DNA of 64,000 bases from Escherichia coli O157:H7 (lineage in GTDB: Bacteria; Pseudomonadota; Gammaproteobacteria; Enterobacterales; Enterobacteriaceae). Of the stretch, positions 41,485-44,400 are shown one piece after another. The position numbers are program-made. The stretch lies in NCBI RefSeq assembly GCF_013167455.1, contig NZ_CP038328.1; one strand, written 5' to 3'. Numbering within the stretch: the first letter of the stretch is position 1; every line of letters starts with the position of its first letter.

Positions 41485-44400
41485 ACGCCCGGTGAAATAA
41501 TCCGGTAATGTTAAGGCGTTATTGTTGTATTCGGTATGCACACGCAACCGCCCGGCCACCAGCTTCCAGTTAATCCACGCGCCTAATGTCAGGCCAATGG
41601 CGATCCAACTTTCGGAAATCCCGGAAAGAAAAACCGCGCCCGGCAACCCCATTAACAGCCAGCCGCTCATATCCGATGCACCCGCCGATAATGCCGTCAC
41701 GAATGGCCCAAGGCTACGTCCGCCCAGAATATAGTCGTCAAAGTTTTTCGTTGATCGCCAGGCGATAAACCCAATCAATATCATGCCAAAGATATAGACA
41801 CAAAATGTCACCAACATCGGTGTGCTAATAGCCATCTAAAGTCTCCAAAAAATTATTATCGGCAATGTCGAAACTTGCCGTTATATCTGCCACCGGAACG
41901 GGGTAACAGAGTTTATGTTTTACCAGGGCGACCGTATCCTGCCGGAAGCGCTGGTTATTCACAATCGATTTAACACACCATTTACATTAAATTTTAGTGC
42001 TCAGCGACACTATTTTTCATCAGGTTGCACTCTCTCACATTTTTTGCGGTTGCACCTTTCAAAAATGTTAACTGCCGCAGAGAAAAAGTCTGAGTTATTT
42101 TTTTAATCCCTGTCATATCGATTTCTTTTATTAACATTTCATTCATTTTTAAGCTTGCTACGCAGGTCACATTTAACATGGTTGCACAAAGTTGCAACAT
42201 CATGGATATTTCACGATAACGTTAAGTTGCACCTTTCAGAACAACAGGAGTAATGGCATGGGAACCACCACCATGGGGGTTAAGCTGGACGACGCGACGC
42301 GTGAGCGTATTAAGTCTGCCGCGACACGTATCGATCGCACGCCACACTGGTTAATTAAGCAGGCGATTTTTTCTTATCTCGAACAACTGGAAAACAGCGA
42401 TACTCTGCCAGAGCTACCTGCGCTGCTTTCTGGCGCTGCCAATGAGAGCGATGAAGCACCGACTCCGGCAGAGGAACCACACCAGCCATTCCTCGACTTT
42501 GCCGAGCAAATTTTGCCCCAGTCGGTTTCCCGCGCTGCGATCACCGCGGCCTATCGCCGCCCGGAAACCGAAGCGGTTTCTATGCTGCTGGAACAAGCCC
42601 GCCTGCCGCAACCAGTTGCTGAACAGGCACACAAACTGGCGTATCAACTGGCCGATAAACTGCGTAATCAAAAAAATGCCAGTGGCCGCGCAGGTATGGT
42701 CCAGGGGTTATTGCAGGAGTTTTCGCTGTCATCGCAGGAAGGCGTGGCGCTGATGTGTCTGGCAGAAGCGTTGTTGCGTATTCCCGACAAAGCCACCCGT
42801 GATGCGTTAATTCGCGACAAAATCAGCAACGGTAACTGGCAGTCACACATTGGTCGTAGCCCGTCACTGTTTGTTAATGCCGCTACCTGGGGGCTGTTGT
42901 TTACTGGCAAACTGGTTTCCACCCATAACGAAGCCAGCCTCTCCCGCTCGCTGAACCGCATTATCGGTAAGAGCGGTGAACCGCTGATCCGCAAAGGTGT
43001 GGATATGGCAATGCGCCTGATGGGCGAGCAGTTCGTCACGGGCGAAACCATCGCGGAAGCGTTAGCCAATGCCCGCAAGCTGGAAGAGAAAGGTTTCCGT
43101 TACTCTTACGATATGCTCGGCGAAGCTGCACTGACTGCCGCAGACGCACAGGCGTACATGGTTTCCTATCAGCAGGCGATTCACGCCATTGGTAAAGCGT
43201 CTAACGGTCGTGGCATCTATGAAGGTCCGGGCATTTCAATCAAGCTGTCGGCGCTGCATCCGCGTTACAGCCGCGCCCAGTATGACCGGGTAATGGAAGA
43301 GCTTTACCCGCGTCTGAAATCACTCACCCTGCTGGCGCGTCAGTACGATATTGGTATCAACATTGACGCCGAAGAGGCCGATCGTCTGGAGATCTCCCTC
43401 GATCTGCTGGAAAAACTCTGTTTCGAGCCAGAGCTGGCAGGCTGGAACGGCATCGGTTTTGTTATTCAGGCTTATCAAAAACGCTGCCCGCTGGTGATTG
43501 ATTACCTGATTGATCTCGCCACCCGCAGCCGTCGCCGTCTTATGATTCGCCTGGTGAAAGGCGCGTACTGGGATAGTGAAATCAAGCGCGCGCAGATGGA
43601 CGGCCTTGAAGGTTATCCGGTTTATACCCGCAAGGTATATACCGACGTTTCTTATCTCGCCTGTGCGAAAAAGCTGCTGGCGGTGCCGAATCTAATCTAC
43701 CCGCAGTTCGCAACGCACAACGCCCACACGCTGGCGGCGATTTATCAACTGGCAGGTCAGAACTACTATCCGGGTCAGTACGAGTTCCAGTGCCTGCATG
43801 GTATGGGCGAGCCGCTGTATGAGCAGGTCACCGGGAAAGTTGCCGACGGCAAACTTAACCGTCCGTGTCGTATTTATGCCCCGGTCGGCACACATGAAAC
43901 GCTGCTGGCGTATCTGGTGCGCCGCCTGCTGGAAAACGGTGCTAACACCTCGTTTGTTAACCGTATTGCCGATACCTCTTTGCCACTGGATGAACTGGTC
44001 GCCGATCCGGTCACTGCTGTAGAAAAACTGGCACAACAGGAAGGGCAAACTGGATTACCGCATCCGAAAATTCCCCTGCCGCGCGATCTTTACGGTCACG
44101 GGCGCGACAACTCGGCAGGGCTGGATCTCGCTAACGAACACCGTCTGGCATCCCTCTCTTCTGCCCTGCTCAATAGTGCACTGCAAAAATGGCAGGCCTT
44201 GCCAATGCTGGAACAACCGGTAGCGGCAGGTGAGATGTCGCCCGTTATTAACCCGGCGGAACCGAAAGATATTGTGGGCTATGTACGTGAAGCCACGCCG
44301 CGTGAAGTAGAGCAGGCGCTGGAAAGTGCGGTTAATAACGCGCCAATCTGGTTTGCCACTCCTCCGGCTGAACGCGCGGCGATTTTGCATCGCGCTGCCG

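What the first reader, a model, noticed from the sequence alone, without database searches (positions are those of the whole stretch)
41836..42257. put intergenic region carries at least five GTTGCA PutA operator motifs, including an inverted pair
The repeated GTTGCA motifs, with ggttgcacaaagttgcaac at ~42180-42198, match the known autoregulatory architecture and support the trimmed putA start at 42258.
Basis: partly seen in the sequence, partly recalled or inferred. Interest (0 to 1): 0.25.

Follow-up and report, generated by a model that had tools for sequence, protein, structure and literature searches.

The report
Known PutA operators, put control region
The 422-bp spacer between the E. 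coli proline-utilisation genes putP and putA carries the five GTTGCA sites where the PutA enzyme-repressor binds to shut off both genes; this is a textbook, already characterised control region, not a discovery.

Summary
The putP-putA spacer (41836-42257) has exactly five GTTGCA hexamers, all on the putA-sense strand, at 42024, 42049, 42181, 42191 and 42226. A sixth, minus-strand match at 42193 exists only because the fourth site is the palindrome GTTGCAAC. About 0.27 matches are expected in 422 bp (P about 1e-5).

The spacer is 100% identical to E. coli O157:H7 and 420/422 identical to K-12 MG1655; neither difference touches a motif. putA starts at 42258, and its first 52 residues are identical to the crystallised PutA DNA-binding domain.

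In 112 species whose PutA has this domain, GTTGCA is the most often repeated hexamer upstream of putA and is 15.8-fold enriched. The 10-bp tandem pair (sites 3 and 4) is conserved from E. coli to Pseudomonas. Sites 1 and 2 are conserved within Enterobacteriaceae. Site 5 is E. coli-only.

These are the published PutA operators O1-O5, so the finding is already known and of low interest. "Inverted pair" is better described as a 10-bp direct repeat.

By-product: the putP 5' leader holds a covariation-supported hairpin (41886-41910, minus strand) with an invariant CGUUCC loop, no Rfam match and no known function.

The parts
41836..42257 (.). put control DNA: 422-bp spacer between divergent putP and putA
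   Evidence: ORFs and RefSeq annotation. 100% identical to O157:H7 and 420/422 identical to MG1655.
42024..42029 (+). GTTGCA site 1 (operator O1 by order); context caGGTTGCACtc
   Evidence: Exact hexamer in 16/20 Enterobacteriaceae; the others have GTTGTA.
42049..42054 (+). GTTGCA site 2 (O2); context gcGGTTGCACCTTTCA
   Evidence: Exact in 18/20 Enterobacteriaceae. Best fit to the cross-species flank consensus G-GTTGCA-CCT.
42181..42186 (+). GTTGCA site 3 (O3), first half of the 10-bp tandem pair
   Evidence: Exact in 20/20 Enterobacteriaceae. The tandem pair is present in 33/37 Enterobacterales and 44/46 Pseudomonas/other.
42191..42198 (+). GTTGCA site 4 (O4), embedded in the palindrome GTTGCAAC, which produces the extra minus-strand match at 42193-42198
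42226..42231 (+). GTTGCA site 5 (O5); shares GTTGCACCTTTCA with site 2; 27 bp upstream of the putA ATG
   Evidence: Exact only in the 2 E. coli sequences of 20 Enterobacteriaceae; E. albertii has GCTATA.
42205..42210 (+). Candidate putA -10 (GATATT); TTGCAC inside site 3 lies 17 bp upstream as a candidate -35. Inference only.
   Evidence: GGATATT is about 100% conserved in 20 genera. Not found by the strict consensus scan. No transcription-start data were available to me.
42246..42260 (+). putA ribosome-binding site AGGAG (42246-42250) and start codon ATG (42258-42260)
   Evidence: Sequence. Conserved ACAGGAG...ATGGG. RefSeq start.
42258..42413 (+). PutA residues 1-52, the ribbon-helix-helix DNA-binding domain
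   Evidence: Identical over 52/52 residues to PDB 2GPE and 2RBF chains.
42258..46220 (+). putA coding sequence, 1320 aa
40327..41835 (-). putP coding sequence, 502 aa (Na+/proline symporter)
41994..42020 (-). ymdG, an 8-codon upstream ORF (MKNSVAEH) in the putP direction; its ATG is 4 bp from site 1
   Evidence: K-12 annotation b4737. Translation. Detected as a tagged 40-aa form (PMC6001520) and re-sized to 8 codons by initiation profiling (bioRxiv 511675). The ATG is not conserved outside Escherichia.
41886..41910 (-). putP-leader hairpin 1: 8-9 bp stem, 7-nt loop CCGUUCC; CGUUCC (41895-41900) is invariant
   Evidence: 8/8 pairs show compensatory changes; 82.7% of cells paired against 63% in shuffles (0/500) and 30-42% in slid controls.
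41860..41880 (-). putP-leader hairpin 2 (CGGCAA...UUGCCG). A published K-12 Term-seq RNA 3' end maps to its first base (41880).
   Evidence: a hairpin of different sequence at the same place in many genera. PMC7815308 supplementary file 3, coordinate 1079260.
41929..41972 (-). Published putP transcription starts p1 (-137, window 41972) and p4 (-95/-94, window 41930/41929); p5 (-13) is at 41848. Candidate p4 elements are TTGTGA 41959-41964 and CAGGAT 41936-41941.
   Evidence: Start positions from PMC2760140, converted. The promoter hexamers are my inference from conserved blocks.

Best explanation
This is the put control region of E. coli. The five GTTGCA hexamers are the operators (O1-O5) of PutA, a flavoenzyme that oxidises proline and also represses its own gene and putP.

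Established knowledge (Zhou et al. 2008; Ostrovsky de Spicer & Maloy 1993; Becker and Tanner labs), partly restated in PMC5293562, PMC5879082 and PMC8249747: the N-terminal ribbon-helix-helix domain forms a dimer whose two-stranded beta-sheet enters the major groove at one GTTGCA plus about 3 flanking bp. When proline is scarce, PutA sits on these sites and blocks both divergent promoters. When proline reduces its FAD, PutA moves to the membrane, leaves the DNA, and both genes are transcribed.

Inferred here: sites 3 and 4, one helical turn apart, overlap the putA core promoter, and site 5 lies just downstream of the likely transcription start, so these three occlude RNA polymerase at putA. 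Sites 1 and 2 lie 52-82 bp upstream of the published putP p1 start and act on putP. A lone hexamer occurs about every 1.4 kb (47 in 64 kb), so specificity must come from the cluster and the flanks (G-GTTGCA-CCT).
For: - Five exact sites against 0.27 expected.
- 420/422 identity to K-12, with all sites intact.
- The PutA domain is identical to PDB 2GPE and 2RBF.
- PutA binds only this spacer in genomic SELEX (PMC8249747).
- In 112 species with the same PutA domain, GTTGCA is 15.8-fold enriched upstream of putA.
- It is the hexamer most often repeated there in each of three clades: 37/37, 48/48 and 26/27 species with at least 2 copies.
- Site columns are far more conserved than the rest of the spacer: O3 and O4 20/20, O2 18/20, O1 16/20.
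- Flanks are non-random: G at -1 67% against 27%; C at +1 75% against 23%; C at +2 77% against 40%.
- Literature statements of the repressor-to-membrane switch.
Against: - The paper that mapped the operators could not be read, so the site-by-site match to O1-O5, and which sites control which gene, rest on memory and position.
- Site 5 is not conserved outside E. coli, so its role cannot be supported by comparison.
- The putA promoter hexamers are inferred, not mapped.
- Sites 1 and 2 do not overlap the three putP starts I could place, so how they repress putP is unclear. Possibilities are activator exclusion, the unplaced promoters p2 and p3, or higher-order complexes.
- Species counts are not phylogenetically independent.
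Confidence: 0.93

Rival explanations
1. The hexamers are a chance cluster in an AT-rich spacer and have no function.
For: GTTGCA is not over-represented in the window as a whole (47 found, 54 expected). The spacer has a skewed composition (39% GC against 48%).
Against: P about 1e-5 for five in 422 bp. Only 1 of 20,000 composition-matched simulations reached 5. Sites 1-4 are conserved across genera, and the tandem pair is conserved as far as Pseudomonas and Aeromonas.
Confidence: 0.01
2. The motifs are sites for another regulator that recognises a similar core, such as CytR (octamer GTTGCATT) or an NtrC-like TGCACC dyad, rather than PutA.
For: RegulonDB models the CytR site as GTTGCATT repeats (PMC3013702). 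Sites 2 and 5 contain TGCACC.
Against: None of the five sites is followed by TT (the next bases are CT, CC, CA, AC, CC). No TGCACC-N5-GGTGCA dyad is present. The motif tracks putA genes that carry the ribbon-helix-helix domain across three clades. SELEX places PutA itself on this spacer.
Confidence: 0.03
3. The conservation reflects a protein-coding constraint from the minus-strand ORF annotated here: the 69-aa 'hypothetical protein' of PGAP, or the 40-aa form of YmdG, which read through sites 1-4.
For: PGAP annotates WP_000979516.1 at 41994-42203 in most E. coli genomes. A C-terminally tagged product of this frame was detected (PMC6001520).
Against: Initiation profiling shows only the last 8 codons are translated, and K-12 now annotates 8 aa. 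No Pfam match. The alignment has indels that are not multiples of three between sites 2 and 3, and the start codons are not conserved outside Escherichia. The same motif is conserved in Pseudomonas, where no such ORF is aligned.
Confidence: 0.02

Closest known systems
E. coli K-12 put control DNA with PutA operators O1-O5 (Zhou et al. 2008, J Mol Biol 381:174; PDB 2RBF = PutA52 on operator 2)
   Same: Same locus, same 422-bp spacer, all five GTTGCA sites at the same positions. Repressor domain identical.
   Different: Two base substitutions outside the sites (window 42165 G for T; 42238 A for T), typical of the O157:H7 lineage.
put control regions of other Enterobacteriaceae (Salmonella: Hahn et al. 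1988; Ostrovsky de Spicer & Maloy 1993)
   Same: Divergent putP-putA. Sites 1-4 sit in the same order and spacing (25 bp and 10 bp) in Citrobacter, Enterobacter, Leclercia, Pluralibacter and others.
   Different: Site 5 is absent from every non-E. coli genus sampled, including E. albertii. Salmonella itself was not among the loci returned.
Pseudomonas putida PutA and its put operators (Vilchez et al. 2000; PDB 2JXG-2JXI)
   Same: Homologous ribbon-helix-helix domain (E = 2e-20). Same hexamer, and the same 10-bp tandem pair about 80 bp upstream of putA, GGTTGCACCnGGTTGCACC.
   Different: The second copy is not palindromic. There are additional sites at about -245 and -311, and one inverted site at about -268.
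Other ribbon-helix-helix repressors with tandem subsites (Arc, MetJ, CopG, antitoxins)
   Same: A beta-sheet dimer reads a short major-groove site, and adjacent dimers sit one helical turn apart, as expected for sites 3 and 4. CopG-family chains are the next PDB matches.
   Different: In PutA the DNA-binding module is fused to a 1,320-residue membrane-associating enzyme. Induction works by relocation rather than by a small-molecule co-repressor.

Membership tests
PutA operators of the E. coli put control region | Located in the spacer between divergently transcribed putA and putP | tested here: met
PutA operators of the E. coli put control region | Five sites, each containing 5'-GTTGCA-3' | tested here: met
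   exactly five on one strand.
PutA operators of the E. coli put control region | Collinear with the characterised K-12 put control DNA | tested here: met
   420/422 identical, no change within a site or within 3 bp of one.
PutA operators of the E. coli put control region | [quoted passage not shown] | tested here: met
   residues 1-52 identical to PDB 2GPE and 2RBF.
PutA operators of the E. coli put control region | Each hexamer is physically bound by PutA (gel shift, footprint, crystal structure on O2) | not testable with these tools
   The primary paper was not readable. Indirect support: genomic SELEX places PutA only on this spacer (PMC8249747).
PutA operators of the E. coli put control region | The motif co-occurs with ribbon-helix-helix PutA in other species (phylogenetic footprint) | tested here: met
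   for sites 1-4. Not met for site 5 (2/20).
CytR operator (GTTGCATT octamers) | Octamer GTTGCATT in direct or inverted pairs about 2 bp apart | tested here: not met
   none of the five hexamers is followed by TT.
Rfam RNA families (for the putP-leader hairpin) | Match to any of the 4,227 covariance models | tested here: not met
   only two chance-level matches (E = 2.2 and 8.4), neither at the hairpin.

The most novel reading that the evidence does not exclude
Inside the coordinates of the finding, the putP 5' leader carries a hairpin (41886-41910, minus strand) that no database or paper I could reach describes. Its stem covaries across 26 Enterobacterales genera and its loop hexamer CGUUCC never changes. 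It could be an uncharacterised cis-regulatory RNA element controlling putP translation or stability. It might act with the sRNA GcvB, which a Salmonella microarray linked to putP, or by defining the RNA 3' end mapped 6 nt downstream. Separately, operator 5 appears to be a recent E. coli-only addition to an ancient four-site design.
Probability: 0.35. Interest if true: 0.4.

Novelty: already known. Interest (0 to 1): 0.08.

Why it matters
The finding itself only confirms that the scan correctly recognises a textbook autoregulatory region and the correct putA start.

The comparative work adds modest detail:
- The core of the system, a 10-bp tandem GGTTGCAC pair about 70-90 bp upstream of putA, is conserved from Enterobacterales to Pseudomonas and Aeromonas.
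- Betaproteobacteria instead use an inverted pair about 21 bp apart.
- Operator 5 is specific to E. coli.
- The putP leader holds a structurally constrained hairpin of unknown function that may be worth a reporter experiment.

Tried and rejected
- **Primary literature.** I tried to read Zhou et al. 2008 and six related PutA papers by PubMed or PMC id. None is held.
- **Full-text searches.** Searches for PutA with GTTGCA, 'proline utilization' with GTTGCA, and PutA52 found nothing relevant. The hits were 'putative' matching the prefix 'puta', and the GalR paper is irrelevant. PMC3413123 does not mention PutA.
- **Rfam.** The spacer gives nothing above chance.
- **Pfam.** No match for the 69-aa PGAP ORF or for the neighbouring 447-aa ORF.
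- **Promoter scan.** The consensus scan found only a weak minus-strand site that does not match any published putP start.
- **CytR or NtrC-type sites.** Rejected on sequence.
- **GcvB and the leader hairpin.**
  - GcvB nt 11-18 (CCGGAACG) is the exact complement of the invariant loop plus closing pairs.
  - However, it lies inside GcvB stem-loop 1 and is weakly conserved in the Rfam consensus.
  - Full-length duplex folding was meaningless.
  - The best local duplex, GcvB R1 with leader -62..-40 at -24.1 kcal/mol, is within the range of shuffles (-20.5 +/- 2.1, minimum -25.6). I keep this only as a lead.
- **CRP sites.** Conserved TCACA half-sites lie next to sites 1 and 3, but the partner halves are weak. 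This is not claimed.

Full report
**What is in the sequence**

Window 41836-42257 is a 422-bp, 39% GC spacer between putP (40327-41835, minus strand, 502 aa) and putA (42258-46220, plus strand, 1320 aa).

GTTGCA occurs on the plus strand at 42024, 42049, 42181, 42191 and 42226. It also occurs once on the minus strand at 42193. The minus-strand match overlaps the 42191 site, because that site reads GTTGCAAC, a palindrome.

**Is it more than chance?**

- The rest of the window has 41 matches on both strands, which gives 0.27 expected per 422 bp.
- Poisson P(>=5) is 1e-5. Only one of 20,000 first-order Markov simulations of the spacer reached five.
- No other 422-bp stretch of the window has more than two, and GTTGCA is the commonest hexamer in the spacer.
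- One-mismatch variants are at the chance level (4 found, 4.5 expected). So there are exactly five sites.

**Identity of the locus**

The spacer is 100% identical to E. coli O157:H7 genomes and is present in 5,420 of 5,426 complete E. coli genomes.

Against MG1655 it differs at two positions (window 42165 and 42238). Neither is inside a hexamer or within 3 bp of one.

RefSeq places the putA start at the position equal to window 42258, in O157, in an MG1655 derivative and in NC_000913.3.

The 52 residues encoded from 42258 are identical to the crystallised PutA ribbon-helix-helix domain, both alone (2GPE) and in the entry 2RBF. From memory, 2RBF is the complex with operator 2 DNA.

Several further observations support 42258 as the start:
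- AGGAG sits 7 nt upstream of the ATG.
- The block ACAGGAG...ATGGG is conserved in 20 genera.
- The in-frame extension back to the TTG at 42192 is not conserved, and in several species a stop codon follows within a few codons.

**Independent test of the motif**

I could not open the paper that mapped the operators, so I looked for evidence that does not depend on it.

A pattern on the conserved coding sequence TPHWLIKQAI of the DNA-binding domain (no operator bases involved) retrieved 120 loci from Enterobacterales, Pseudomonas, Aeromonas and Betaproteobacteria.

In the 112 loci with at least 150 bp of upstream sequence:
- GTTGCA occurs at 9.7 per kb upstream of putA, against 0.62 per kb in the rest of the same loci. 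That is a 15.8-fold enrichment.
- In an unbiased count of all hexamers, GTTGCA is the one most often present in two or more copies upstream of putA in each clade: 37/37 Enterobacterales, 48/48 Pseudomonas and others, and 26/27 Betaproteobacteria. Its overlapping neighbours GGTTGC, TTGCAC and TGCACC come next.
- Flanking bases are non-random and give G-GTTGCA-CCT. This matches my recollection that PutA52 contacts the hexamer plus three flanking base pairs.

These counts are not phylogenetically independent, but the agreement across three clades is hard to explain otherwise.

Genomic SELEX in K-12 found PutA bound only to the putA-putP spacer (PMC8249747).

**Conservation site by site**

An alignment of 20 Enterobacteriaceae spacers gave the following.

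| Site | Window position | Exact hexamer conserved | Note |
|---|---|---|---|
| 1 | 42024 | 16/20 | Variants are GTTGTA |
| 2 | 42049 | 18/20 | Best fit to the flank consensus |
| 3 | 42181 | 20/20 | Part of the invariant block GGTTGCACAAAGTTGCAACAT |
| 4 | 42191 | 20/20 | Same block |
| 5 | 42226 | 2/20 | Only the two E. coli sequences; E. albertii has GCTATA |

Other findings across clades:
- The pair of direct repeats 10 bp apart, about 60-90 bp upstream of the putA ATG, is present in 33/37 Enterobacterales and 44/46 Pseudomonas/other.
- In Pseudomonas the second copy is GGTTGCACC, not a palindrome. So the conserved arrangement is a tandem pair one helical turn apart, and the inverted reading (GTTGCA-N6-TGCAAC) is a by-product in enterics.
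- Betaproteobacteria mostly carry one site on each strand about 21 bp apart (21/27).

**How it most likely works**

Established knowledge, from Zhou et al. 2008, Ostrovsky de Spicer & Maloy 1993 and the Becker and Tanner labs, is partly restated in PMC5293562, PMC5879082 and PMC8249747:
- With little proline, oxidised PutA binds the operators through its ribbon-helix-helix dimer and represses putA and putP.
- Proline reduces the FAD, PutA gains membrane affinity and leaves the DNA, and both genes are expressed.

Inferred here:
- Sites 3 and 4 overlap the putA core promoter. TTGCAC within site 3 lies 17 bp upstream of the invariant GATATT at 42205-42210. An alternative pairing uses TTGCAA in site 4.
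- Site 5 then falls at or just after the transcription start.
- Published putP starts at -137, -95/-94 and -13 (PMC2760140) map to window 41972, 41930/41929 and 41848.
- That places sites 1 and 2 at 52-82 bp upstream of p1, not over a core promoter that I can place. How they repress putP is therefore the least certain step.
- The hexamer occurs about once per 1.4 kb, yet SELEX shows a single genomic target. Clustering and flanks must supply the specificity.

**Rivals**

- Chance is excluded by the statistics and the conservation.
- CytR (GTTGCATT) and NtrC-type dyads do not fit the flanks.
- Coding constraint from the PGAP 69-aa ORF, or from 40-aa YmdG, does not hold. Only the last eight codons are translated. 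The alignment has frame-breaking indels. The motif is conserved where no such ORF exists.

**Other things in the spacer**

- *ymdG.* K-12 annotates ymdG (8 codons) at window 42020-41994 on the minus strand, 4 bp from site 1. Its ATG is not conserved beyond Escherichia.
- *Conserved promoter-like blocks.* Blocks at 41935-41950 and 41957-41987 coincide with the published p4 and p1 starts. They plausibly contain those promoters: TTGTGA, then 17 bp, then CAGGAT ending 7 nt before the p4 start.
- *Leader hairpin 1.* The strongest unexplained feature is a hairpin in the putP leader, 41886-41910 on the minus strand, at -75 to -51 from the ATG.
  - The loop hexamer CGUUCC is invariant in 26 Enterobacterales, from E. 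coli to Yersinia and Photorhabdus.
  - All eight stem pairs show compensatory changes. Paired cells are 82.7%, against 63% in shuffles (0/500 as high) and 30-42% when the partner is slid.
  - There are 16 U-G cells against about 7 C-A cells, which favours the putP-sense RNA.
- *Leader hairpin 2.* A second hairpin of variable sequence follows at 41860-41880. A published Term-seq 3' end (K-12 1079260, not Rho-dependent, low terminator score) maps to window 41880, 6 nt after hairpin 1.
- *Rfam.* It has no match here.
- *GcvB.* A review notes that a Salmonella microarray suggested GcvB regulates putP through its R1 region (PMC9299463). My pairing predictions are not significant. The exact complementarity of GcvB nt 11-18 to the loop lies in a paired, weakly conserved part of GcvB.

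**Verdict**

The feature is already known, so interest is low. The small corrections are:
- There are exactly five sites.
- The conserved arrangement is a tandem pair rather than an inverted pair.
- Site 5 is confined to E. coli.
- The operator-by-operator assignment still needs checking against the primary paper, which I could not read.

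Noticed in passing
window 41886-41910 (-), loop 41895-41900: Hairpin in the putP 5' leader with an invariant CGUUCC loop and a covarying 8-9 bp stem in 26 Enterobacterales. 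It has no Rfam match and I found no description of it. An earlier count gave slightly wrong coordinates (41890-41912); the ones here are correct.
   Followed up: partly
window 41860-41880 (-): Second leader hairpin, with a different sequence but the same place in many genera. The K-12 Term-seq RNA 3' end (1079260) maps to its first base, 6 nt after hairpin 1. GcvB R1 is predicted to pair across -62..-40, but not significantly.
   Followed up: partly
window 41994-42020 (-); 41994-42203 (-): ymdG, an 8-codon upstream ORF annotated in K-12, starts 4 bp from operator 1. PGAP instead annotates a 69-aa 'hypothetical protein' in the same frame in most E. coli genomes. That ORF runs through operators 1-4 and is probably spurious.
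   Followed up: partly
window 42226-42231: Operator 5 is found only in E. coli among 20 Enterobacteriaceae; E. albertii has GCTATA at the aligned position. It shares 13 bp (GTTGCACCTTTCA) with operator 2.
   Followed up: partly
window 41970, 42066, 42131, 42174: A second repeated, conserved hexamer, TTAACA/TGTTAA, occurs four times in the spacer. It is 16-fold enriched upstream of putA in Enterobacterales (31/37 species with at least 2 copies). The binding factor, if any, is unknown.
   Followed up: no
window 42034-42038 and 42167-42171: Conserved TCACA (a CRP-like half-site) lies next to operator 1 and next to operator 3. The partner half-sites are weak. One of the two differences from K-12 (42165) lies in the spacer of the second.
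   Followed up: no
window 38835-40178 (+): A 447-aa 'hypothetical protein' gene (WP_001247490.1) sits between putP and efeU in O157:H7, with no Pfam domain.
   Followed up: no
L010 3360-3430 (Silvimonas terrae), upstream of putA: A hexanucleotide microsatellite (CAACTG)n of about 13 units repeats the operator hexamer TGCAAC every 6 bp. It sits just upstream of three ordinary GGTTGCACC-type sites.
   Followed up: no
Betaproteobacterial loci (e.g. L004, L028, L047): Burkholderia, Paraburkholderia and Caballeronia carry one GTTGCA at about -83 and an inverted copy at about -104 (21/27 species), instead of the 10-bp tandem pair.
   Followed up: no
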